Part shown: positions 10,756-52,633 of the stretch, piece after piece
How positions within the stretch are numbered: position 1 is the first letter of the stretch
Layout of the letters: each line of letters begins with the position of its first letter
Assembly: GCF_016026235.1 (NCBI RefSeq)
Contig: NZ_CP065613.1
DNA: 64,000 nt
Strand: one strand, 5' to 3'
DNA from: Escherichia coli
GTDB lineage: Bacteria; Pseudomonadota; Gammaproteobacteria; Enterobacterales; Enterobacteriaceae
The notes under the pieces: model-generated
What the model saw: only the letters and a program-made list of their open reading frames with translations
Database searches by the model: none
What the model was told of the DNA's origin: nothing
Translations under genes and position numbers: made by a program

Positions 10756-13700
10756 TCAGCTGATACTGATACCTGCTGTGGATTTCTTCATCACAACAAC
10801 CAGCAAATCGCTGATACTTGCTGTGGGATACCAGCCATTTACCAGCCATGCCGATACAGAAAACTCCAGCGTCATGTGACCGTGACCGGCAGGCATATCA
10901 ATAACACCCGTATATATCAGCGTATTATCCAGGGTCGTTCGGTTATAAATTTCAGCACCGTTTTTCTTCACTATCAGGCGGCATGACGAATAAATATTGT
11001 TATTCTTCCGCTCATGTTTAGCACCGCGAAACGCCACCGCGGGAATAACAATTTGCCGATCAAACGGCTGATCGTCATAAACCCTGACGGTAATGGTCCC
11101 TGATGGCCACCTCTCCGGTGCACGGGAGTCCCGTGGGAAAGGTTTGCCCACTGTTTTAACGAGATCGCCTTCAATCTGGTTCGCGGACAATTTTCCCAGA
11201 ACCCGACAGTTCTTATTAATCGTGACGTTGTTGAGCGTCCCGGAGTTCACGTTACCGCTGATATCGGCATTTTTCGCCGTCAGCCGTCCGCCAGGTGTCA
11301 GGGAAAATGCCGGAGGATTACCGCCGCTGGTAATGGTCGGAGCCGTCAGGCGTTTCAGGAACACGTCGTTCATGAATATCTGATCGCCCTGACCAACAAA
11401 CATCGGCTTTGTGTTGCCATTCGCAGGATTAATCATCGCAATCCTGTCTGCCGCCAGCAGCACCTGACTCTGCATTCCTGCTGGCGTATTCTCAATACCG
11501 GCACCGATACCCGCAATATAAAGGCGTCCGTCCTTCATCTGTTGCAGCTTCACAGCCCACATGCTGTTCAGGTTATTATTTGTATCAACCTGAACTTTCT
11601 GTATCTGCTGGATTGCAGCACTCTGATTTTCCAGTTTTTTATTGACGGTTTGCGTGATTTCATTGCTGACATTCGTAATGGACGTCCTGATTTCAGTCAG
11701 GTCCGGCGCAAGCTGACCGTTATCAATCTGCGTCCACAACTCCTTGCCGAGATGCGTTTTATTGATCAACCCTTTATAAAAACTCAGATAACCTTCCGCA
11801 TCATCGCTCGCCCGACCGACGGCCTCCACAAATGCCGATTTGCCAACGGTGTTCACACTGCGAACGTAAAAATAATAATCATGGCCCGGCCTGATATTGA
11901 TACTGGCGGCTATCCAGTACAGCGCCGTGCCAAGATAGCGGGCGCTGGTTTCAACCTGCCTGATATCCGCAATCCGCTTTTCCGAAAACCAGAACTCAAA
12001 CTGCACCGTCGGGTCATATACAGCCAGTTTCGGGACCGCCGTTATCTGAAAATACCCCGGTATCAGTTCAATAGTGACAGGCGCTGCCGGTGCCGCAATC
12101 CGGAACGATACCGACGCCGGATCGCCCTGCTGCCCCCGGGCATTTACCACCCGGACTGTCAGACTGTAATTCCCCAGCGCCAGCTGCCTGAAGCGGTATG
12201 TGGTTTCCGTCGTCCGGGCTGTGCTGACCAGCCGCTCACTGCCGTCGTCCGCTGCCACGGTCAGGCGAAGCAGGAAGCTCACTCCCTTCACCACCTTCGG
12301 CGTGTCCCATCGCGCCAGCACCTGATATTCCCCGCTGTCTGCGGTGACTTCGGCGGTCAGATGCTGCACCGCTGGCGGCGTGACACCATTCACCGTGCCG
12401 CGCCGGTCACCGTCAAAGTGTGCCCCGTTATCCACGATGGCCTCTTTTTCCGGCACATGCTGCACGGCGGTGATGGCATACGTGCCGTCGTCGTTCTCAC
12501 GGATACTCACGCAGCGGAACAGGCGCTGGCGCAGCGTCGGCAGCTTCAGCCCCCACACGCTGTATTCTGCAACGCCGTCAGGAACCCGGCTCACTTTCAC
12601 CTTCACGCCGTCGGTGACGGACTGAACCTCCACGCTGACCGGACTCCCCTGCCCGTCAACCAGGCTTATCAGCGTGGTGCCGGAAGATGGCAGCGTGATT
12701 TCACGGTCGAGCGTCAGCGTCCGGGTCTGGCTGTTTACCGCCAGCACGCGCCCGCCGGTGCTGATACCGGCATAGTCATCATCGCAGATTTCAATGACAT
12801 CGCCCGGTACATGGCGAAGCCCTTCAGCACCCACGCTGAAGTCCACGGTCTGCGTTTCCAGCAGCTCCGTTTTAATCAGCCACAGCCCGGCGCGGTGTGC
12901 CTGCCCCCGACTGGTACAGCCAAAGGCATCCATCTTCGTGACATTACGACCGTAACGGGCAATGGCCTGCGTATCTTCAACAAGCTCTGTCGCCGTCTCC
13001 CAGCCGTTATCCGGGTCAATCCAGTTCACCTCAACGGCATTATGGCGGTCCTTCAGGGCGCTGAAGCTGTAGCGGAACGGCGCGCCATCATCCGGCATCA
13101 CCACATTACTGCGGTTATAGGTCCACACCTTATCCGACGGTCGGTCCTGCACGAACGTCAGCGTCTGCCCGTTCCATACCGGCATACAGCGCATCGCCGA
13201 GCAGAAATCACTGAGCACATCCCACGCCTTGCGCTGTGTGGTCAGGTACGCATTACAGGTGATGCGCGGCTCCGTGCCGCCAAAGCCGTCCGGCACCGAC
13301 TGATCGCAATTCTGGCCGATGACATACAGCGCCCATTTATCCACATCCGCCGCACCAAGACGTTTCCCCATGCCGTAGCGCGGGTGGGTCAGCATATCCC
13401 ACAGACACCAGGCCATATTGTTGCTGTATGCTGGCTTAAACGTTCCGTCCCAGATACCGCTGTATTGCCGCGTCTGCGGGTTATAGTTCGACGGCACCTG
13501 CAGAATGCGCCCGCGAAGATGATAATTGCGACTCACCTGCTGGTTACCGAACTGCTCTGAATCCACCTGCACGCCGACCAGCGCCGTGTTCGGGTAGCAC
13601 TGTTTCACATCGATGATTTCGGTGTACGACGACCAGAGCGTTTTGTTCTGCAGCTGGTCTGTGGTGCTGTCCGGTGTCATCCTGCGCATCCGGATATTAA

Positions 13701-36753: not shown

Positions 36754-36817
36754 TGAGGTAGCCTGAGTTTAACGGACACTCCTTCCTGAAATAGAATGGC
36801 ATCAGAAGGAGCTAATA

Positions 36818-37120
36818 ATGAGCAGAAAAAACCAACGTTACTCTAAAGAGTTCAAAGCCGAAGCTGTCAGAACGGTTCTTGAAAATCAACTTTCGATCAG
36901 TGAAGGCGCTTCCCGATTATCCCTTCCTGAAGGCACTTTAGGACAATGGGTTACCGCCGCCAGAAAAGGGCTCGGTACTCCTGGTTCCCGCACGGTGGCT
37001 GAACTGGAATCTGAAATTCTGCAACTGCGTAAGGCGTTAAATGAAGCTCGCCTTGAGCGAGATATATTAAAAAAAGCAACAGCGTATTTTGCACAGGAGT
37101 CGCTGAAAAATACGCGTTAA
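36818..37120 (+). CDS. IS600 OrfA
   Basis: 100 aa HTH protein MSRKNQRYSKEFKAEAV. Confidence 0.9.
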   Translation: MSRKNQRYSKEFKAEAVRTVLENQLSISEGASRLSLPEGTLGQWVTAARKGLGTPGSRTVAELESEILQLRKALNEARLERDILKKATAYFAQESLKNTR

Positions 37121-37155
37121 TCGAACAATGGCGACAACAATTTCCCATTGAAGCG

Positions 37156-37974
37156 ATGTGTCAGGTATTTGGTGTATCCAGGAGCGGTTATTACAACTGG
37201 GTACAGCATGAACCCTCAGACAGAAAACAAAGTGATGAGCGGCTAAAACTGGAGATTAAGGTGGCACATATCCGCACTCGCGAAACATATGGAACCCGGC
37301 GGCTCCAGACGGAGCTGGCAGAGAATGGCATCATCGTTGGTCGTGACCGACTGGCACGTCTTCGTAAGGAGCTAAGGCTACGCTGTAAGCAGAAACGCAA
37401 GTTCAGAGCGACTACGAACCCGAACCACAATCTGCCAGTTGCGCCAAATCTGCTGAACCAGACGTTCGCTCCTACAGCACCAAATCAGGTCTGGGTGGCG
37501 GACCTGACGTATGTTGCCACACAGGAGGGATGGTTGTACCTCGCTGGCATCAAAGATGTTTATACGTGCGAAATTGTCGGCTACGCCATGGGAGAGCGCA
37601 TGACAAAAGAGCTGACAGGTAAAGCCCTGTTTATGGCGCTCAGGAGCCAGCGCCCACCTGCCGGGCTAATCCACCACTCTGATCGAGGTTCACAGTACTG
37701 CGCATACGATTACCGGGTCATACAGGAGCAGTCTGGTCTGAAAACATCAATGTCGCGTAAAGGTAACTGTTACGACAACGCTCCGATGGAAAGCTTCTGG
37801 GGAACGCTGAAAAATGAGAGCCTGAGCCACTATCGTTTTAATAACCGGGATGAAGCCATCTCAGTAATACGGGAATACATTGAGATTTTCTACAATCGTC
37901 AGCGTCGTCACTCTCGTCTGGGGAATATCTCCCCGGCAGCCTTCAGGGAAAAATATCATCAGATGGCTGCTTAA
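37156..37974 (+). CDS. IS600 OrfB (DDE transposase; made as OrfAB by -1 frameshift)
   Basis: 272-aa ORF; A-run AAAAAAAG near orfA 3' end. Confidence 0.9.
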   Translation: MCQVFGVSRSGYYNWVQHEPSDRKQSDERLKLEIKVAHIRTRETYGTRRLQTELAENGIIVGRDRLARLRKELRLRCKQKRKFRATTNPNHNLPVAPNLLNQTFAPTAPNQVWVADLTYVATQEGWLYLAGIKDVYTCEIVGYAMGERMTKELTGKALFMALRSQRPPAGLIHHSDRGSQYCAYDYRVIQEQSGLKTSMSRKGNCYDNAPMESFWGTLKNESLSHYRFNNRDEAISVIREYIEIFYNRQRRHSRLGNISPAAFREKYHQMAA

Positions 37975-38017
37975 AAAAAGAACAAATGGTAGTGTCCGCT
38001 ATTGCCAGTACACCTCA

Positions 38018-43573: not shown

Positions 43574-43684
43574 TCTTTAGCCTCACACCGGATACTCTGT
43601 TATCCAAGAATGTTAAACATGAGAATCCAAAGTATCAAGATATTCTGTTACTTTAGTATCAGCAGCCATGAAAGGAGAAGAAAA
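43574..43684. promoter_or_regulatory. divergent cro/cI promoter-operator region
   Basis: 111-bp intergenic with repeated GTATCA and CTGTTA motifs. Confidence 0.5.
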
Positions 43685-44341
43685 ATGAAATCTTTAGGTG
43701 AACGGCTAATCAACGCACGACAAAAAGCTGGGTTAACGCAAGATGCGTTGGCTAAAAAAGCAGGGGTCACCAGAGTTGCAATCAGTAAAGCCGAGCAAGG
43801 CCTTACAAAAAGTTTCAACGGTGACACCCTTTTTAAAGTCGCAGCTGCACTGCAGTGTTCACCGCAGTGGCTTCAGAACGGAGATGAGAAAGGTAAGCAT
43901 TGGGAAAATAATGTTAAGAGTTGCCCCCAGAGGGACACAGCACACTCTTACCCTGTAATTAACTGGGTTCAGGCAGGATTATTCACAACTGCAGGTGATG
44001 ACTACAACATGTATGATCAGGATAACTGGAGGCATTCTGTAAAATACGCTGGTGAGAGGGGGTTCTGGCTGGAAGTGCACGGAGACTCAATGACTTCGCC
44101 TATAGGAATAACATTTCCTGAAGGAATGTCGATCCTTGTCAACCCAGATAAAGAAGTTTTTTCAGGGTGTTACGTCATTGCCAGAAAAAAATCCACCAAT
44201 GAAGCAACATTCAAAAAATATATTTCTGAAATGGGAAAGGCGTTTCTAAAGCCCCTTAATCCACAATACCCAATCATAGAAATGGACAATGATTGCGAAA
44301 TAGTAGGCGTTGTGGTTGATGCCAGATGGGATATTTTCTGA
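43685..44341 (+). CDS. CI-like repressor (HTH plus S24 LexA-like peptidase domain)
   Basis: 218 aa; AGLTQDALAKKAGVTRVAISKAEQG HTH; HGDSM and K of catalytic dyad. Confidence 0.9.
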   Translation: MKSLGERLINARQKAGLTQDALAKKAGVTRVAISKAEQGLTKSFNGDTLFKVAAALQCSPQWLQNGDEKGKHWENNVKSCPQRDTAHSYPVINWVQAGLFTTAGDDYNMYDQDNWRHSVKYAGERGFWLEVHGDSMTSPIGITFPEGMSILVNPDKEVFSGCYVIARKKSTNEATFKKYISEMGKAFLKPLNPQYPIIEMDNDCEIVGVVVDARWDIF

Positions 44342-46195: not shown

Positions 46196-46385
46196 GTGGG
46201 TCCACCAGCAGGCGTTGCTGGTCCTGCGGCGGTACAGATGCCGACGTATATTCCCGCATCGGATACAGCGCAACGGATATCTCAGTCTGAAGGTTAACCG
46301 TCGCTGGCGGCTGTTATCGAAAGACGACGGCCGGAACTGGGAAGTAATGAGTCATGAACGTTATTCGGGGGAAATAAAGAAATGA
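46167..46385 (+). CDS. hypothetical basic protein, GTG start
   Basis: AGGAGG RBS before GTG; C-terminus RNWEVMSHERY loosely recalls HigB/RelE toxin tails. Confidence 0.5.
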   Translation: MTLTATRIPEWVHQQALLVLRRYRCRRIFPHRIQRNGYLSLKVNRRWRLLSKDDGRNWEVMSHERYSGEIKK

Positions 46386-46532
46386 TCGACAACCGCACCG
46401 CCAGCGCCATTGACCAGGCATTACAGAAACATGATACACCCGTCGGCCCGTTATTTTTTGTAACACGCCACGAAAGAACAAAAAATGCCTCACCCGAAAA
46501 ACGGCAATTCGTTACCTGGCATTCTTTATGAC
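46383..46532 (+). CDS. hypothetical small protein
   Basis: 49 aa, ATGA overlaps on both sides. Confidence 0.4.
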
Positions 46533-46773
46533 CACCCGCGCTTTTGAACGTTCAGGATTCCGACAACGCCATCCTGACAAGCGTTTTATCTTCAACGGGA
46601 ATGAGATATGGAAACGTGGAGAATCAACCACAGAGTATACCCGCGCACACCAGCGAACAATCAGACGACTGCGCAGACTCATCGCCAGGAAACAGTATAC
46701 AGAAAAATGGTTCAGAAAATATGACACATGGAGCGCCGGATATTACGAACTGATGGCAACAAAACCATTCTGA
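46528..46773 (+). CDS. hypothetical basic protein
   Basis: 81 aa, ATGA-coupled. Confidence 0.45.
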   Translation: MTTRAFERSGFRQRHPDKRFIFNGNEIWKRGESTTEYTRAHQRTIRRLRRLIARKQYTEKWFRKYDTWSAGYYELMATKPF

Positions 46774-46833
46774 CGTAAACGAAATTAACCATGACGCAAT
46801 TAAATAAGGCAAGCCGAATACATCAGGAGGACC

Positions 46834-47022
46834 ATGAACATTTATTTCAGAATAGTTATATCACTGGCAATTATCGCATGTATTTACGGATTAATCGTTC
46901 CGGCCCTCATATCAATGAAGGATACGGTAGCAGTGATTTCTGGCTTTGCTCTGGCGTGTCTGACCCCGCCCTGCATTTATGCCATTTATAAGGGTCTTTC
47001 TTTCCCCAGGAGGGAAAAATGA
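46834..47022 (+). CDS. small membrane protein (two predicted TM segments)
   Basis: 62 aa; CAGGAGG RBS; stop overlaps SPFH ATG. Confidence 0.55.
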   Translation: MNIYFRIVISLAIIACIYGLIVPALISMKDTVAVISGFALACLTPPCIYAIYKGLSFPRREK

Positions 47023-47828
47023 AAAAAACAATTGCGCTTGTTTTCGCGGTCAGTCTGGCTGTCTTCGGACTTGTAGGTTGCGATCGCGTTGAACCAGGTA
47101 ATGTGGGTATCAAAGTCAACAAACTGGGCGACGACAAAGGTGTCGGTGAAGTGGTCGGTGTTGGTCGCTACTGGACTGGCTGGAATACTGAAGTTTACAT
47201 TTTCCCGACCTTCAAGCAAATGAAGACCTACGATGAACCGTTCAGTTTCCAGATGAGTGACGGCACAACCATCGGCTATCACATCGGCGTGGCCTACAAA
47301 GTTGATCCATCCAAAGTTACCACGGTGTTTCAGACTTACCGCAAAGGCGTGGATGACATTACCAACACCGACCTGCGCCAGAAGATCGCCGACGCACTCA
47401 ATCGGCTGGCCAGCAAAATGACCACCGACAAATTTATTGACGGCGGCAAGTCTGAACTACTGGATGCCGCACTTAAAGACATTCAGGAAGAGATGACACC
47501 CATCGGCATTCAGGTAATGAGCCTCTCTTATGTAGGTAAACCGGAATACCCTCCAACCGTTATCGACAGCATTAACGCCAAAGTCACGGCAAACCAGAAA
47601 ACCCTGCAGCGCGAACAGGAAGTCAAGCAACGTGAAGCGGAGGCCAACATGCTACGTGCGGAAGCTGCCGGACAGGCTGATGCCATTCGAACAAAAGCCC
47701 AGGCAGAAGCCGATGCCATTCGTTTACGCGGCGAAGCTCTACGCCAGAACCCAGGCGTCATGGAGCTGGAAGCCATCAACAAGTGGAACGGTACACTGCC
47801 GCAATACATGACCAGTGGTGTGAGGTAG
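47019..47828 (+). CDS. SPFH/band-7 family lipoprotein, last codons replaced by IS600
   Basis: Lipobox LVGC; SPFH core; Ala/Glu/Arg-rich coiled coil; final residues VR encoded by IS600 left end. Confidence 0.8.
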   Translation: MKKTIALVFAVSLAVFGLVGCDRVEPGNVGIKVNKLGDDKGVGEVVGVGRYWTGWNTEVYIFPTFKQMKTYDEPFSFQMSDGTTIGYHIGVAYKVDPSKVTTVFQTYRKGVDDITNTDLRQKIADALNRLASKMTTDKFIDGGKSELLDAALKDIQEEMTPIGIQVMSLSYVGKPEYPPTVIDSINAKVTANQKTLQREQEVKQREAEANMLRAEAAGQADAIRTKAQAEADAIRLRGEALRQNPGVMELEAINKWNGTLPQYMTSGVR

Positions 47829-47884
47829 CCTGAGTTTAACGGACACTCCTTCCTGAAATAGAATGGCATCAGAAGGAGCTAATA

Positions 47885-48187
47885 ATGAGCAGAAAAACCC
47901 AACGTTACTCTAAAGAGTTCAAAGCCGAAGCTGTCAGAACGGTTCTTGAAAATCAACTTTCGATCAGTGAAGGCGCTTCCCGATTATCTCTTCCTGAAGG
48001 CACTTTAGGACAATGGGTTACCGCCGCCAGAAAAGGGCTCGGTACTCCTGGTTCCCGCACGGTGGCTGAACTGGAATCTGAAATTCTGCAACTGCGTAAG
48101 GCGTTAAATGAAGCTCGCCTTGAGCGAGATATATTAAAAAAAGCAACAGCGTATTTTGCACAGGAGTCGCTGAAAAATACGCGTTAA
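47885..48187 (+). CDS. IS600 OrfA
   Basis: Near-identical to copy 1. Confidence 0.9.
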   Translation: MSRKTQRYSKEFKAEAVRTVLENQLSISEGASRLSLPEGTLGQWVTAARKGLGTPGSRTVAELESEILQLRKALNEARLERDILKKATAYFAQESLKNTR

Positions 48188-48222
48188 TCGAACAATGGCG
48201 ACAACAATTTCCCATTGAAGCG

Positions 48223-49041
48223 ATGTGTCAGGTATTTGGTGTATCCAGGAGCGGTTATTACAACTGGGTACAGCATGAACCCTCAGACAGAAAACAAAGT
48301 GATGAGCGGCTAAAACTGGAGATTAAGGTGGCACATATCCGCACTCGCGAAACATATGGAACCCGGCGGCTCCAGACGGAGCTGGCAGAGAATGGCATCA
48401 TCGTTGGTCGTGACCGACTGGCACGTCTTCGTAAGGAGCTAAGGCTACGCTGTAAGCAGAAACGCAAGTTCAGAGCGACTACGAACCCGAACCACAATCT
48501 GCCAGTTGCGCCAAATCTGCTGAACCAGACGTTCGCTCCTACAGCACCAAATCAGGTCTGGGTGGCGGACCTGACGTATGTTGCCACACAGGAGGGATGG
48601 TTGTACCTCGCTGGCATCAAAGATGTTTATACGTGCGAAATTGTCGGCTACGCCATGGGAGAGCGCATGACAAAAGAGCTGACAGGTAAAGCCCTGTTTA
48701 TGGCGCTCAGGAGCCAGCGCCCACCTGCCGGGCTAATCCACCACTCTGATCGAGGTTCACAGTACTGCGCATACGATTACCGGGTCATACAGGAGCAGTC
48801 TGGTCTGAAAACATCAATGTCGCGTAAAGGTAACTGTTACGACAACGCTCCGATGGAAAGCTTCTGGGGAACGCTGAAAAATGAGAGCCTGAGCCACTAT
48901 CGTTTTAATAACCGGGATGAAGCCATCTCAGTAATACGGGAATACATTGAGATTTTCTACAATCGTCAGCGTCGTCACTCTCGTCTGGGGAATATCTCCC
49001 CGGCAGCCTTCAGGGAAAAATATCATCAGATGGCTGCTTAA
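48223..49041 (+). CDS. IS600 OrfB
   Basis: Identical to copy 1. Confidence 0.9.
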   Translation: MCQVFGVSRSGYYNWVQHEPSDRKQSDERLKLEIKVAHIRTRETYGTRRLQTELAENGIIVGRDRLARLRKELRLRCKQKRKFRATTNPNHNLPVAPNLLNQTFAPTAPNQVWVADLTYVATQEGWLYLAGIKDVYTCEIVGYAMGERMTKELTGKALFMALRSQRPPAGLIHHSDRGSQYCAYDYRVIQEQSGLKTSMSRKGNCYDNAPMESFWGTLKNESLSHYRFNNRDEAISVIREYIEIFYNRQRRHSRLGNISPAAFREKYHQMAA

Positions 49042-49150
49042 AAAAAGAACAAATGGTAGTGTCCGCTATTGCCAGTACACCTCAGTGCCAATACACCATT
49101 TATCCAGATTAAATAACTTATATGCCCGGCAGGCCGCCGGGCTAAGGGAA

Positions 49151-49960: not shown

Positions 49961-50197
49961 ATGGGCAATGTGATTCAACTGGCTCCCAATGAATGGGTTT
50001 GTGAAAGCGTTCTTATCGCAATTACCGGGCTCAAACCAGGCACAATTCTCCGAGCCCGGAAAGAATGCTGGATGGTAGGAAGAGAGTATATTCACGTATC
50101 ACCAGACGGTAATCCAAAGCCATCCAGCGAATGTATGTATAACAGAAAAGCAATAGATGCCTGGGTCTCTTCAATGAAAAACAAACAACCTGGGTGA
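49961..50197 (+). CDS. excisionase-like protein
   Basis: 78 aa directly upstream of integrase. Confidence 0.6.
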   Translation: MGNVIQLAPNEWVCESVLIAITGLKPGTILRARKECWMVGREYIHVSPDGNPKPSSECMYNRKAIDAWVSSMKNKQPG

Positions 50198-50252
50198 TTT
50201 AATGCCATGAAGTATGTAAGCTCGTATCGCTCTTGGGCGTCTGGAGGTATCA

Positions 50253-51425
50253 ATGGATAAAGTCAAATATCCAACAGGCGTCGAAAACCACGGTGGCACA
50301 TTACGCATCTGGTTTAATTTTAAAGGTAAACGTGTCAGGGAAAATCTTGGTGTCCCTGACACTGCCAAGAACAGGAAGATCGCCGGAGAGCTGCGGACAT
50401 CTGTATGTTTTGCCATTCGTACAGGAAATTTTGATTATGCTGCGCAGTTCCCTGACTCTCCTAACCTCAAGGCTTTTGGGGTAAATAAAAAAGAAATTAC
50501 GGTGAAAGAACTTGAAGAAAAATGGCTGGATCTGAAACGAATGGAAATCTCTGCAAATGCATTCAATCGCTATGAATCCATTGCAAGGATGATGGTTCCG
50601 AAGATTGGTGGCAACCGACTGGTATCAGCAGTGACCAAAGAGGAATTGCTGTATATCAGGAAAGATTTGCTGACCGGATACCAAAATCCAACAAAAGGTA
50701 AAGCTCCAGTAAAAGGACGAAGCGTTGTCACAGTAAATTATTACATGACAACAATCGCTGGAATGTTTCAGTTTGCTGCAGATCACGGTTACATAGAAGC
50801 AAATCCCTTCGAGGGAATTAAGCCTCTTAAAAGAGCCAGGGCAGAACCAGATCCGCTAACTCGTGACGAATTTATTCGCCTGATAGATGCTTGCCGGCAT
50901 CAGCAGACAAAAAACCTGTGGTCATTGGCTGTGTACACAGGAATGCGTCATGGTGAACTGGTCTCCCTGGCCTGGGAAGATATCGATCTGAAAGCAGGAA
51001 CAATTACTATCAGGCGCAATTATACGAAACTCGGTGAGTTCACTCTACCTAAAACTGAAGCAAGTACAAACAGGGTTGTGCATCTTATCCAGCCCGCTAT
51101 CAGTGTCCTGAAAAATCAGGCTGAAATGACAAGACTGGGTAAGCAGCACAACATCAAGGTTCAACTACGTGAATATGGACGTTCAGTAAATCATGAATGT
51201 ACTTTCGTATTTAACCCCCAGGTGGTTAGAAAAAGCAAACAGGTAGGTTTTATCTACAAGGTAGATTCCATTGGCGACTCATGGGAAACAGCCATTAAAC
51301 GTGCAGGCATCAGGCATCGAAAGGCATACCAGTCACGACACACTTATGCGTGCTGGTCATTATCTGCCGGAGCAAATCCAAGCTTCATTGCCAGCCAGAT
51401 GGGGCATGCAAGTGAGGTAGCCTGA
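50253..51425 (+). pseudogene. int: tyrosine integrase, 3' end interrupted by IS600
   Basis: GGAGG RBS; catalytic region through HTYACWSLSAGANPSFIASQMGH then IS600 from 51413. Confidence 0.85.
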
Positions 51426-51476
51426 GTTTAACGGACACTCCTTCCTGAAATAGAATGGCATCAGAAGGAGCTAATA

Positions 51477-51779
51477 ATGAGCAGAAAAACCCAACGTTAC
51501 TCTAAAGAGTTCAAAGCCGAAGCTGTCAGAACGGTTCTTGAAAATCAACTTTCGATCAGTGAAGGCGCTTCCCGATTATCCCTTCCTGAAGGCACTTTAG
51601 GACAATGGGTTACCGCCGCCAGAAAAGGGCTCGGTACTCCTGGCTCCCGCACGGTGGCTGAACTGGAATCTGAAATTCTGCAACTGCGTAAGGCGTTAAA
51701 TGAAGCTCGCCTTGAGCGAGATATATTAAAAAAAGCAACAGCGTATTTTGCACAGGAGTCGCTGAAAAATACGCGTTAA
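51477..51779 (+). CDS. IS600 OrfA
   Basis: As copy 2. Confidence 0.9.
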   Translation: MSRKTQRYSKEFKAEAVRTVLENQLSISEGASRLSLPEGTLGQWVTAARKGLGTPGSRTVAELESEILQLRKALNEARLERDILKKATAYFAQESLKNTR

Positions 51780-51814
51780 TCGAACAATGGCGACAACAAT
51801 TTCCCATTGAAGCG

Positions 51815-52633
51815 ATGTGTCAGGTATTTGGTGTATCCAGGAGCGGTTATTACAACTGGGTACAGCATGAACCCTCAGACAGAAAACAAAGTGATGAGCG
51901 GCTAAAACTGGAGATTAAGGTGGCACATATCCGCACTCGCGAAACATATGGAACCCGGCGGCTCCAGACGGAGCTGGCAGAGAATGGCATCATCGTTGGT
52001 CGTGACCGACTGGCACGTCTTCGTAAGGAGCTAAGGCTACGCTGTAAGCAGAAACGCAAGTTCAGAGCGACTACGAACCCGAACCACAATCTGCCAGTTG
52101 CGCCAAATCTGCTGAACCAGACGTTCGCTCCTACAGCACCAAATCAGGTCTGGGTGGCGGACCTGACGTATGTTGCCACACAGGAGGGATGGTTGTACCT
52201 CGCTGGCATCAAAGATGTTTATACGTGCGAAATTGTCGGCTACGCCATGGGAGAGCGCATGACAAAAGAGCTGACAGGTAAAGCCCTGTTTATGGCGCTC
52301 AGGAGCCAGCGCCCACCTGCCGGGCTAATCCACCACTCTGATCGAGGTTCACAGTACTGCGCATACGATTACCGGGTCATACAGGAGCAGTTTGGTCTGA
52401 AAACATCAATGTCGCGTAAAGGTAACTGTTACGACAACGCTCCGATGGAAAGCTTCTGGGGAACGCTGAAAAATGAGAGCCTGAGCCACTATCGTTTTAA
52501 TAACCGGGATGAAGCCATCTCAGTAATACGGGAATACATTGAGATTTTCTACAATCGTCAGCGTCGTCACTCTCGTCTGGGGAATATCTCCCCGGCAGCC
52601 TTCAGGGAAAAATATCATCAGATGGCTGCTTAA
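51815..52633 (+). CDS. IS600 OrfB
   Basis: One substitution (F for S) versus other copies. Confidence 0.9.
   Translation: MCQVFGVSRSGYYNWVQHEPSDRKQSDERLKLEIKVAHIRTRETYGTRRLQTELAENGIIVGRDRLARLRKELRLRCKQKRKFRATTNPNHNLPVAPNLLNQTFAPTAPNQVWVADLTYVATQEGWLYLAGIKDVYTCEIVGYAMGERMTKELTGKALFMALRSQRPPAGLIHHSDRGSQYCAYDYRVIQEQFGLKTSMSRKGNCYDNAPMESFWGTLKNESLSHYRFNNRDEAISVIREYIEIFYNRQRRHSRLGNISPAAFREKYHQMAA

What the first reader, a model, noticed from the sequence alone, without database searches (positions are those of the whole stretch)
46834..49113. Prophage accessory pair: small membrane protein coupled to an SPFH/band-7 lipoprotein between cI and int
A 62-aa two-TM protein (46834-47022, strong RBS) has its stop overlapping the ATG of a 269-aa lipoprotein (lipobox LVGC) with an SPFH core and a long Ala/Glu/Arg coiled coil. 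The pair sits in the leftward accessory region between cI and xis/int, the slot where lambdoid phages carry exclusion and abortive-infection cargo such as rexAB or sieB. Membrane scaffold plus small membrane partner is the architecture of several known membrane-acting exclusion modules, but I cannot match this pair to a named system. IS600 copy 2 replaces only the last ~9 codons (original tail ...TSGANTPFIQIK recoverable after the IS), so the protein may still function.
Basis: partly seen in the sequence, partly recalled or inferred. Interest (0 to 1): 0.7.

Follow-up and report, generated by a model that had tools for sequence, protein, structure and literature searches.

The report
Phage SPFH membrane-cage gene pair, IS-broken
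The two genes are real and belong to a very common but functionally unstudied phage gene pair (a small membrane hairpin plus a prohibitin/HflK-like lipoprotein) found in killer and dormant phages alike, so it is probably not a special prophage defence cargo, and this copy is broken by an insertion element.

Summary
A 62-aa two-TM ORF (46834-47022) overlaps by ATGA a Band_7/SPFH lipoprotein ORF (47019-). IS600 (47821-49084, GTG duplication) cuts that ORF after codon 267. The restored 276-aa protein is identical to intact Shigella/E. coli proteins.

Neither protein matches a PADLOC defence model. Both belong to catalogued phage families (phrog_1130, phrog_200). Relatives occur in 385 of 50,697 phage records, including virulent N4-like, Vequintavirinae, Ounavirinae, Bruynoghevirus, crAss-like, Lak and phiCbK-like phages. 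There they sit among early or DNA-metabolism genes. In temperate phages the pair lies in operons I take to be repressor-controlled early operons (lambdoid early-left, P2-like early; P1 ban, whose C1 operator is annotated).

The hairpin partner accompanies the SPFH gene down to about 36% identity. In at least 16 of 150 cluster representatives the two are fused in frame.

The closest structures are prohibitin and HflK/C cages. I infer a periplasm-facing inner-membrane cage made early in lytic growth. Its client is unknown; FtsH is my first guess (about 0.3) and lytic-phase superinfection exclusion the second.

This copy lacks a conserved C-terminal motif and lies in a decaying prophage. No function has been published.

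The parts
46825..46830 (+). Shine-Dalgarno AGGAGG of the small ORF
   Evidence: Read directly from the sequence, 3 nt upstream of the ATG at 46834.
46834..47022 (+). 62-aa two-TM hairpin protein (phrog_1130 family). Predicted topology is N-in/C-in, with a short periplasmic loop P-A-L-I-S-M-K-D-T.
   Evidence: ORF list. phrog_1130 at 7e-24. No Pfam, NCBIfam or PADLOC hit. Hydropathy and conserved loop motif. dN/dS 0.14-0.6.
47008..47013 (+). Shine-Dalgarno AGGAGG of the SPFH gene, lying inside the end of the small ORF
   Evidence: Read directly from the sequence. The ATGA start/stop overlap is at 47019-47022.
47019..47820 (+). Native part (codons 1-267) of the SPFH/Band_7 lipoprotein gene (phrog_200). 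As it stands the ORF reads on into IS600 and ends at 47828 (269 aa, ...SGVR*).
47019..47081 (+). Lipoprotein signal peptide with lipobox LVGC (Cys21), followed by Asp at +2
   Evidence: Sequence. Cys is conserved in at least 90% of 47 diverse homologues. Inner-membrane retention by Asp+2 is established E. coli Lol-avoidance knowledge, not tested here.
47085..47645 (+). Band_7/SPFH domain (residues 23-209)
   Evidence: Pfam PF01145, E = 6.3e-31. AlphaFold model with pLDDT 89.6.
47553..47783 (+). Long CC1 helix (residues 179-243) and short CC2 helix (residues 245-255), including the invariant K-W-x-G motif
   Evidence: secondary structure. (W256 and G258 invariant). (full-length match to prohibitin, HflK/C, erlin and stomatin cage subunits).
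47818..47820 (.). Left copy of the 3-bp target-site duplication (GTG)
47821..49084 (+). IS600 (IS3 family), 1264 bp, with orfA 47885-48187 and orfB 48223-49041. Second of three copies in the window.
49085..49087 (.). Right copy of the target-site duplication (GTG)
49088..49116 (+). Displaced 3' end of the SPFH gene (codons for A-N-T-P-F-I-Q-I-K plus stop): the conserved C-terminal motif
   Evidence: restoration. (identical to intact P0001). (P271 conserved in at least 90%).
43610..44341 (+). Context: cI-type repressor of the prophage
   Evidence: phrog_4 transcriptional repressor, 4.6e-53.
46382..46773 (+). Context: the gene immediately upstream (phrog_1886 family), frameshifted here by a 1-bp deletion in an A-run
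49961..51412 (+). Context: xis (49961-50197) and int (50253-). The int gene is cut at 51413 by the third IS600 copy (51413-52676).
   Evidence: Synteny with L004, L005 and phiP27.

Best explanation
What it is. This part is shown by the tool results. It is a disrupted copy of an old and widespread two-gene module of tailed phages. The first gene encodes a small inner-membrane hairpin (two TM helices, phrog_1130). The second is translationally coupled to it and encodes an exported, lipid-anchored protein of the prohibitin/HflK branch of the SPFH superfamily (phrog_200).

How it most likely works. This part is inferred.
1. The SPFH protein is secreted and lipidated at Cys21. It stays on the periplasmic face of the inner membrane: Asp at +2 favours retention, some homologues carry an uncleaved TM anchor instead, and others are fused to the hairpin, so those must be in the inner membrane.
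2. Like every full-length SPFH protein solved so far, it oligomerises through its 65-residue CC1 helix, CC2 and C-terminal tail into a closed dome. The published regression of CC1 length against subunit number gives roughly 22 subunits.
3. The dome covers a patch of inner membrane that holds the hairpin partner. The partner's conserved periplasmic loop is the likely contact.
4. The module is made early in lytic development, after infection or induction. It acts for the phage by corralling an inner-membrane client.
5. My preferred client is the FtsH protease or inner-membrane quality control. HflK/C and prohibitin, the closest characterised relatives with the same out-facing topology, do exactly this, and FtsH is universal among the hosts concerned.

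Sub-probabilities: cage plus partner architecture about 0.8; early lytic, phage-serving role about 0.7; FtsH as client about 0.3.

In this window the module is very probably dead or crippled. IS600 removes the conserved C-terminal nine residues, and the prophage around it is decaying.
For: Identity
- Pfam Band_7, 6e-31.
- phrog_200 at 1e-114 and phrog_1130 at 7e-24.
- AlphaFold pLDDT 89.6: SPFH fold, helix 179-243, helix 245-255.
- The best Foldseek matches are full-length subunits of prohibitin, HflK/C, erlin and stomatin cages.
- A profile against PDB sequences ranks prohibitin-1 (7e-10) and HflK (1e-7) first.

Coupling of the two genes
- ATGA overlap.
- The 2-TM partner is found next to the SPFH gene in nearly all 103 loci held at that point, after manual checks of a few; the rest are fused or cut off by a contig end.
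- It is still within two genes of it in virulent phages at 36-47% identity.
- Distant partners still hit phrog_1130.
- At least 16 of 150 50%-identity cluster representatives are in-frame fusions: hairpin, basic linker, third hydrophobic segment, SPFH. Of these, 13 keep the lipobox Cys.

Inner-membrane, periplasmic placement
- Lipobox plus Asp+2.
- Sutterella homologues have no Cys, only an N-terminal TM.
- The topology of the fusions.

Early lytic, phage-serving role
- 385 phage records carry a relative, many of them virulent.
- In KpCHEMY26 (Schitoviridae), 4MG (Vequintavirinae), DL54 (Bruynoghevirus) and phiEa21-4 (Ounavirinae) it lies among RNA polymerase, dUTPase, ligase and DNA polymerase genes.
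- In temperate phages it lies in the early-left operon, the P2-like early operon and the C1-repressed ban operon of P1 variants. The Pban/Op72 region there is identical to canonical P1.
- Distant metagenomic homologues sit beside recombination and replication genes.
- No own promoter or terminator stands out above chance.
- Strong purifying selection on SPFH (omega 0.006-0.09).

Cage size: the regression in PMC12624060 applied to a 65-residue CC1 helix.

Inactivation here.
Against: - No experiment on any member was found. Two papers state explicitly that the role in phages is unclear.
- Oligomerisation, localisation and partner binding are inferred from homology, not shown.
- The FtsH idea rests only on the nearest characterised relatives, which are about 17% identical. 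The NCBIfam HflK and HflC models score far below their cut-offs.
- HflK/C and prohibitin are heteromers of two SPFH paralogues, whereas this module has one.
- The hairpin partner is swapped between phages as very divergent alleles (20-31% identity) while the mature SPFH stays 95-96% identical. That is easier to reconcile with a variable specificity element, as in phage-phage competition, than with binding an invariant host protease.
- Expression timing is inferred from gene position, not measured.
- CT mutations in prohibitin or erlin only mildly shifted complex migration. Loss of the tail may therefore weaken rather than abolish assembly.
Confidence: 0.4

Rival explanations
1. Superinfection exclusion during lytic growth, comparable in role to T4 Imm/Sp or T5 Llp. 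The early-made periplasmic cage with its hairpin blocks DNA entry across the inner membrane, or lysis from without, by later-arriving phages. It would protect the infected cell for the resident phage.
For: - Early-gene position in virulent and temperate phages.
- The location is at the periplasm/inner-membrane interface, which incoming DNA must cross.
- Known exclusion proteins are small inner-membrane proteins or lipoproteins (own knowledge; titles).
- The hairpin partner exists as highly divergent, recombining alleles on a nearly constant SPFH scaffold, as expected for a specificity determinant in phage-phage competition.
- PHROGs files the partner under 'moron/host takeover'.
Against: - No homology to any known exclusion protein or PADLOC model.
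- Exclusion genes are usually narrow in distribution and fast-evolving. Here the SPFH protein is deeply conserved, from Proteobacteria phages to crAss-like and Lak phages, under strong purifying selection.
- A 20-nm dome covers only a small part of the membrane, so a general block to entry needs an extra assumption, such as sequestering a specific entry factor.
Confidence: 0.2
2. One reading: lysogen-protecting accessory cargo (exclusion or abortive infection) expressed from the prophage, in the manner of rexAB or sieB.
For: - The pair lies between repressor and int in lambdoid prophages.
- It hops between lambdoid, P2-like, P1-like and SSU5-like backbones.
- In P1 variants it replaces the accessory tciABC genes.
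- It is sporadic among bacterial species: only 11 loci in 100,044 species representatives, though the search patterns were narrow.
Against: - About two thirds of an evenly spaced sample of 60 of the 385 phage records are, by my reckoning, virulent lineages with no lysogens to protect.
- In temperate phages it is embedded in operons I take to be repressor-controlled (the P1 ban operator is annotated) and shows no promoter- or terminator-like signals of its own.
- No PADLOC hit.
Confidence: 0.1
3. Membrane-integrity or lysis-timing factor. The cage stabilises the energised inner membrane, or restrains a membrane-damaging phage protein, possibly the holin-like hairpin itself, until the proper time of lysis.
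For: - SPFH proteins are tied to membrane stress responses and respiration in bacteria (titles and abstracts: PMC8581546, PMC12005517, PMC10434171).
- The partner has the size and N-in/C-in two-TM layout of class II holins (the holin comparison is my own knowledge).
- The module is useful to any phage regardless of lifestyle, which fits its breadth.
Against: - The pair is never seen here in a lysis cassette. It sits with early DNA-metabolism genes.
- The partner's PHROG is not a holin family.
- There is no direct evidence.
Confidence: 0.15
4. An ordinary host stomatin/NfeD-type housekeeping operon that happens to lie in a prophage.
For: SPFH gene with an adjacent small membrane-protein gene, as in qmcA-ybbJ (one search lists the QmcA-YbbJ structure 8z5g).
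Against: - The partner has no NfeD domain and no Pfam hit at all.
- The contexts inspected, close and distant, carry phage or phage-like early/replication genes; most of the viral-contig loci were scanned only for the partner.
- 380 viral contigs and 385 phage records carry it.
- The predicted orientation is periplasmic rather than cytoplasmic.
Confidence: 0.01

Closest known systems
HflK/HflC-FtsH complex of E. coli (PDB 7VHP, 7WI3, 9CZ2)
   Same: - SPFH1/2 domains, long CC1, CC2 and a C-terminal tail, giving a full-length structural match.
- Among the best sequence-profile hits.
- SPFH domains sit on the periplasmic face of the inner membrane.
- Historical link to phage biology through lambda CII stability.
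   Different: - One SPFH gene instead of two paralogues.
- Lipid anchor instead of an N-terminal TM helix in the window's protein.
- Only about 17% identity.
- NCBIfam HflK and HflC models score 23-26 bits against cut-offs of 134-159.
- A dedicated 2-TM partner.
- Phage-encoded.
- FtsH binding untested.
Mitochondrial prohibitin PHB1/PHB2 cage (PDB 8RRH, 9O9Z)
   Same: - Best sequence-profile hit (7e-10) and best Foldseek hit.
- Similar size (about 270 aa) and CC1 length.
- It faces the compartment that is topologically equivalent to the periplasm and partners an FtsH-type AAA protease (established knowledge).
   Different: Eukaryotic, heteromeric and TM-anchored, with no small hairpin partner.
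SPFH-NfeD operons (E. coli QmcA-YbbJ, PDB 8Z5G; Pyrococcus PH1511/PH1510)
   Same: An SPFH gene is co-transcribed with a small or medium membrane protein that sits with the cage. QmcA is a significant structural match.
   Different: - The partner here is 62 aa with no NfeD/OB-fold domain and no Pfam hit.
- QmcA faces the cytoplasm, whereas this protein is exported.
- The gene order and families differ.
Phage superinfection-exclusion membrane proteins and lipoproteins (T4 Imm and Sp, T5 Llp, TP-J34 Ltp, P22 SieA)
   Same: Envelope proteins encoded by phages; those of virulent phages (T4 Imm/Sp, T5 Llp) are made early. They include lipoproteins and small inner-membrane proteins. This could be the same biological role.
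   Different: No sequence or fold relationship. None of them is an SPFH protein. The resemblance is by analogy only (my own knowledge plus titles).

Membership tests
SPFH / Band 7 superfamily (Pfam PF01145) | Significant match to the Band_7 profile | tested here: met
   E = 6.3e-31, residues 23-209.
SPFH / Band 7 superfamily (cage-forming full-length members) | SPFH1/2 alpha-beta domain followed by a long CC1 helix, CC2 and a C-terminal tail | tested here: met
   AlphaFold model with pLDDT 89.6. Full-length Foldseek matches to prohibitin, HflK/C, erlin, stomatin and flotillin subunits.
SPFH / Band 7 superfamily (cage-forming full-length members) | Assembly into a closed multimeric dome on a membrane | not testable with these tools
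   Needs multimer modelling with interface scores, or cryo-EM or BN-PAGE. About 22 subunits is only an extrapolation from the CC1-length regression.
HflK / HflC (FtsH modulators) | Score above the curated NCBIfam equivalog cut-off | tested here: not met
   HflC 25.5 bits against 134.4; HflK 22.8 bits against 159.4.
HflK / HflC (FtsH modulators) | Two SPFH paralogues encoded together and forming a heteromer | tested here: not met
   There is only one SPFH gene per module in the loci examined in detail.
HflK / HflC (FtsH modulators) | Binding and regulation of FtsH | not testable with these tools
   Requires pull-down and substrate half-life assays.
SPFH-NfeD operon | Partner protein carries an NfeD domain (PF01957, C-terminal OB fold) | tested here: not met
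   The 62-aa partner has no Pfam match even at E <= 10 and no NCBIfam match.
PHROG phrog_200 + phrog_1130 phage module | Both proteins match the family profiles and are adjacent on one strand | tested here: met
   1.4e-114 and 7.4e-24. Adjacency is conserved across the loci examined.
Known anti-phage defence systems (PADLOC-DB v2.0.0) | Match to any defence-protein HMM | tested here: not met
   No family at E <= 0.1 for either protein. The database dates from 2023; later systems were not tested.
Moron (autonomous accessory transcription unit) | Own promoter upstream and terminator downstream | tested here: inconclusive
   No sigma-70-like site and no + strand terminator flank the pair in the intact relative L004 or in the window, and counts are at or below shuffled expectation. 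The consensus scans are crude.
Bacterial lipoprotein retained in the inner membrane | Lipobox [LVI][ASTVI][GAS]C after a signal peptide; Asp at +2 (E. coli Lol avoidance) | tested here: met
   L-V-G-C21-D22. Cys is conserved in at least 90% of sequences. Actual lipidation and localisation were not testable.
Class II (two-TM) holins | Located in a lysis cassette with endolysin and spanins; holin family match | tested here: not met
   Neighbours are early or DNA-metabolism genes. The only PHROG hit is 'membrane protein'.
IS600 (IS3 family) | Near-identity to annotated IS600, orfA/orfB arrangement, TG...CA ends, 3-bp target duplication | tested here: met
   99.8% identity to annotated IS600. 1264 bp with a GTG duplication. 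orfA and orfB.

The most novel reading that the evidence does not exclude
The module is a pan-Caudoviricetes early 'membrane cage' system. The phage builds its own prohibitin-like dome on the periplasmic face of the host inner membrane. A small, exchangeable two-TM adaptor decides which inner-membrane target is locked inside. That target could be FtsH, or a channel used by competing phages for DNA entry. This would be a previously undescribed mechanism of host takeover or phage-phage exclusion, shared by virulent and temperate phages of several bacterial phyla.
Probability: 0.2. Interest if true: 0.75.

Novelty: new variant of a known kind. Interest (0 to 1): 0.42.

Why it matters
phrog_200 has a low family number, which I take (without checking) to mean it is one of the larger PHROG families. 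It has no assigned function beyond 'lipoprotein'. The papers I could read say its role in phages is unclear (PMC8540360, PMC13239085). It has also been misannotated as 'serine protease' or 'transposase', and it has been used as a hint of lysogeny in therapeutic-phage safety assessments.

This analysis adds several points:
- The protein always travels with a conserved two-TM partner and is sometimes fused to it.
- It is predicted to face the periplasm.
- It sits in early operons.
- It is equally at home in virulent phages.

These points turn a vague annotation into a testable hypothesis: a phage-built HflKC/prohibitin-like cage.

For this particular window the message is modest. The locus is an IS600-damaged copy inside a decaying Shigella-type prophage at yecE. 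It should not be counted as a defence system.

Tried and rejected
- PADLOC and NCBIfam scans of both proteins gave nothing beyond weak HflK/C similarity.
- Pfam on the small protein gave nothing.
- Six full-text literature searches were run: SPFH with prophage/defence terms, SPFH with phage, a P1 plp search, band 7 with exclusion, HflK/prohibitin with N4-like phages, and SPFH with early-gene transcriptomics. None found an experimental study of a phage SPFH lipoprotein, only genome notes.
- I suspected that P1's plp was this protein. It is not. Canonical plp is a 125-aa gene on the other strand, and the SPFH pair in P1 variants replaces tciABC in the ban operon.
- A genome-collection scan with the diverse alignment A1 failed because no stretch was conserved enough. 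The narrower alignment A2 returned only 11 loci, so species-level prevalence is a lower bound.
- My first upstream-ORF script picked an overlapping alternative-frame ORF and missed partners whose stop lies more than 15 nt inside the SPFH gene. This was corrected.
- My first restoration of the gene was off by two bases and was corrected.
- I did not use the second structure job on a partner-SPFH fusion. The tool returns no inter-residue error map, so an interface could not have been judged.
Full report
1. THE OBSERVATION

- A 62-aa ORF (46834-47022, + strand) is preceded by AGGAGG. Its TGA overlaps the ATG of a second ORF (47019-), which has its own AGGAGG.
- The small protein has two hydrophobic segments separated by the loop P-A-L-I-S-M-K-D-T, and a basic C-terminal tail.
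- The second protein starts with a lipoprotein signal peptide (lipobox L-V-G-C21, then Asp). It has a Pfam Band_7/SPFH domain at residues 23-209 (E = 6e-31). A predicted helix runs from residue 179 to 243.
- An IS600 copy occupies 47821-49084. It is 1264 bp, has a GTG target duplication, and is 99.8% identical to annotated IS600.
- Removing the IS and one GTG restores a 276-aa protein ending ...YMTSGANTPFIQIK. This is 100% identical to a protein cluster of 1366 member sequences that NCBI names as a Shigella boydii SPFH protein.
- Both ORFs have homologues under purifying selection. For SPFH dN/dS is 0.006-0.09. For the small ORF it is 0.14-0.6. They are therefore real genes.

2. WHAT THE PAIR IS

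Both proteins belong to catalogued phage families. The small one is phrog_1130, 'membrane protein' in the category moron/host takeover (7e-24). The large one is phrog_200, 'lipoprotein' (1e-114). Neither matches any PADLOC defence model. NCBIfam gives only sub-threshold HflC/HflK similarity. The small protein has no Pfam match at all, so it is not an NfeD protein.

At the DNA level the pair occurs in the following:
- phiP27, where the lipoprotein is L05, originally annotated 'putative serine protease';
- eleven Stx2-converting phages (ten Stx2a, one Stx2d);
- the P2-like phage P88 (gp11 plus gp12);
- P1 variants;
- phage Fraca.

It is also present in 509 of 5426 complete E. coli genomes, and 172 of those places are on plasmids. 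380 IMG/VR viral contigs carry a relative.

The family is large. 3007 clusters at 50% identity reach E <= 1e-3, and 225 reach E <= 1e-30.

3. THE TWO GENES BELONG TOGETHER

- After correcting my first script, a two-TM ORF with the loop motif (L/V)-x-P-x-(L/M)-(I/V)-S was found next to the SPFH gene in nearly all 103 loci held at that point. Usually the two overlap by 4 nt. This covers homologues down to about 45% identity in Sutterella, Parasutterella, a Flavobacterium MAG and metagenomic contigs.
- Distant partners still hit phrog_1130.
- In virulent phages at 36-47% identity the partner is one or two small genes further upstream. Examples are 4MG gp235, DL54 ORF 2283-2495 of L106, and phiEa21-4 gp84.
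- At least 16 of the 150 best cluster representatives are in-frame fusions. Their order is hairpin, basic linker, third hydrophobic segment, SPFH. Thirteen of them keep the lipobox Cys.
- These fusions are Rosetta-stone evidence for a joint function. They also fix the topology: hairpin N-in/C-in, SPFH domain outside the cytoplasm.
- The Sutterella homologues lack the Cys and have a plain N-terminal TM anchor.
- Together with Asp at +2, the E. coli Lol-avoidance signal (established knowledge), this places the SPFH domain on the periplasmic face of the inner membrane.

4. DISTRIBUTION ARGUES AGAINST PROPHAGE-SPECIFIC DEFENCE CARGO

tblastn finds relatives in 385 of 50,697 phage records. In an evenly spaced sample of 60 rows, about two thirds are lineages that I know as virulent: N4-like Schitoviridae, roughly 145-kb Vequintavirinae-like myoviruses, Ounavirinae, Bruynoghevirus, crAss-like phages, Lak megaphages, phiCbK-like phages and jumbo phages.

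I checked four by their taxonomy lines and annotation.

| Phage | Lineage | Neighbouring genes |
|---|---|---|
| KpCHEMY26 (gp28 '2 TMDs N in C in' plus gp29 SPFH lipoprotein) | Schitoviridae | between RNA polymerase subunits and dUTPase |
| 4MG | Vequintavirinae | between ligase and exonuclease |
| DL54 | Bruynoghevirus | among small early-type ORFs |
| phiEa21-4 | Ounavirinae | next to DNA polymerase |

In temperate phages the pair is embedded in early operons that I take to be repressor-controlled.
- Lambdoid phages: the early-left operon between repressor and xis/int.
- P88: the early operon between cox and the replication gene.
- P1 variants: the ban operon. Its C1 operator/promoter region is base-for-base identical to that annotated in canonical P1, and the pair replaces tciABC.

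Distant homologues lie next to recombination and replication genes and integrases. Simple scans find no promoter or terminator of its own around the pair above shuffled expectation.

The module therefore looks like an early lytic gene pair that serves the phage. It does not look like a lysogen-expressed immunity-region gene of the rexAB type.

5. STRUCTURE AND LIKELY MECHANISM

The AlphaFold model (pLDDT 89.6) shows these parts in order:
- an SPFH alpha/beta domain directly after the lipidated Cys;
- a 65-residue CC1 helix;
- a short CC2 helix;
- a tail that is disordered in the monomer.

Foldseek matches full-length subunits of prohibitin, HflK/C, erlin, stomatin and flotillin cages. A sequence profile ranks prohibitin-1 and HflK first. 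In all these complexes the subunits form a closed dome on a membrane, and the C-terminal regions form the cap (PMC12624060). That paper's regression of subunit number on CC1 length gives about 22 subunits for a 65-residue helix. This is an extrapolation.

I infer a homo-oligomeric dome on the periplasmic face of the inner membrane. It would enclose the hairpin partner and possibly a host client.

The closest characterised relatives are HflK/C and prohibitin. They have the same out-facing topology and cage FtsH-type proteases, and FtsH is universal. FtsH or inner-membrane quality control is therefore my first guess for the client (about 0.3).

One finding speaks against an invariant host target. 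Between E. coli phages the mature SPFH is 95-96% identical, while the signal peptide and the hairpin are only 20-31% identical. The recombination breakpoint lies exactly at the lipobox. A constant scaffold with an exchangeable small partner fits a specificity element. This keeps lytic-phase superinfection exclusion alive as the main rival (about 0.2). A role in membrane integrity or lysis timing (about 0.15) and lysogen defence (about 0.1) follow.

6. STATE OF THIS COPY

IS600 removes residues 268-276. In a 47-sequence alignment spanning 32-61% identity, W256 and G258 are invariant and P261 and P271 are at least 90% conserved. The tail motif (T/I)-P-(F/L/M)-(I/V) is general. The lost piece therefore carries a conserved element of the cap-forming C-terminus.

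Mutating CT contacts in prohibitin and erlin only mildly shifted complex migration. Complete loss of function is thus likely but not certain.

The surroundings are decaying.
- The gene immediately upstream is frameshifted by a 1-bp deletion.
- int is cut by a third IS600 copy, and a first copy lies at 36754.
- The prophage abuts yecE-yecN-cmoA, the integration site used by related Stx2 and phiP27-type phages.

7. COMPARISON WITH WHAT IS KNOWN, AND NOVELTY

The protein is a member of the SPFH superfamily. It is not HflK or HflC: it scores below the cut-offs, it is a single paralogue, and it is lipid-anchored. It is not part of an SPFH-NfeD operon, because the partner has no NfeD domain. It matches no known defence or exclusion family.

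The family itself is catalogued and widely annotated, but the library I could search holds no functional study. Two genome papers say the role is unclear. One notes its presence in obligately lytic phages. The other guesses at adsorption or DNA entry.

I rate it a new variant of a known kind: a phage-borne, periplasm-facing SPFH lipoprotein with a dedicated two-TM partner. As a family it is of moderate interest. This particular locus is of low interest, because it is a damaged copy.

Noticed in passing
window 46382-46773: The gene directly upstream of the pair (phrog_1886 family, 130 aa in the E. coli relative) is split into two ORFs. The cause is a 1-bp deletion in an A-run near 46480. Apart from one further substitution, the rest of this stretch is identical to the relative.
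   Followed up: yes
window 36754-38017, 47821-49084, 51413-52676: There are three IS600 copies in direct orientation within about 16 kb of one prophage. The third cuts the integrase gene (50253-) roughly 50 codons before its expected end. Recombination between the copies could delete the intervening prophage DNA.
   Followed up: partly
window 52680-56500: To the right of the third IS600 copy the sequence is core E. coli/Shigella chromosome (yecE/DUF72, yecN, cmoA, cmoB, torZ). The prophage therefore sits at the yecE site used by phiP27-like and some Stx2 phages.
   Followed up: partly
window 47019-47081 compared with L002 (P88) and L003 (P1 variant): There is a sharp mosaic boundary at the lipobox. 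The mature SPFH is 95-96% identical between these phages, but the signal peptide (7-8 of 20 residues) and the two-TM partner (20-31%) are different alleles. In the closest E. coli relative the pattern is the reverse: the small ORF has no synonymous differences from the window (one amino-acid change) while the SPFH gene has dS = 0.26.
   Followed up: partly
proteins P0124, P0132, P0139, P0153, P0167 and others; locus L086 2643-3641: These are natural in-frame fusions of the hairpin partner to the SPFH protein, and 13 of 16 keep the internal lipobox Cys. The fusions may be cut by signal peptidase II into the two usual products, which would be an unusual internal lipoprotein processing event.
   Followed up: no
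L003 3100-6200 and L108 (canonical P1) 10600-13300: In P1 variants the pair replaces tciA-tciB-tciC (and plp/upl) inside the C1-repressed ban operon. The Pban/Op72 region is identical in both. Canonical plp ('putative lipoprotein') is an unrelated 125-aa gene on the opposite strand.
   Followed up: yes
L094 (Yersinia pestis NCTC5923 contig): The module also sits on what looks like an SSU5/pHCM2-type phage-plasmid (my reading of the neighbours: UvsX-like recombinase, replication helicase, SbcD-like nuclease). This is a fourth kind of temperate backbone carrying it.
   Followed up: partly
L103 (contig labelled 'MAG: archaeon'): Only the first 82 residues of the SPFH protein match (64% identity), with a hairpin ORF upstream. 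It is either a truncated copy or a mis-binned bacterial or phage contig.
   Followed up: no
window 46791-46991: A 66-aa ORF in another frame overlaps the small membrane-protein gene. It is conserved only because it overlaps the real gene, and it misled my first automated partner search.
   Followed up: yes
public annotations under: The same protein is variously annotated as 'serine protease', 'putative transposase', 'HflK family protein', 'prohibitin family protein' and 'lipoprotein'. The first two look like propagated errors.
   Followed up: no
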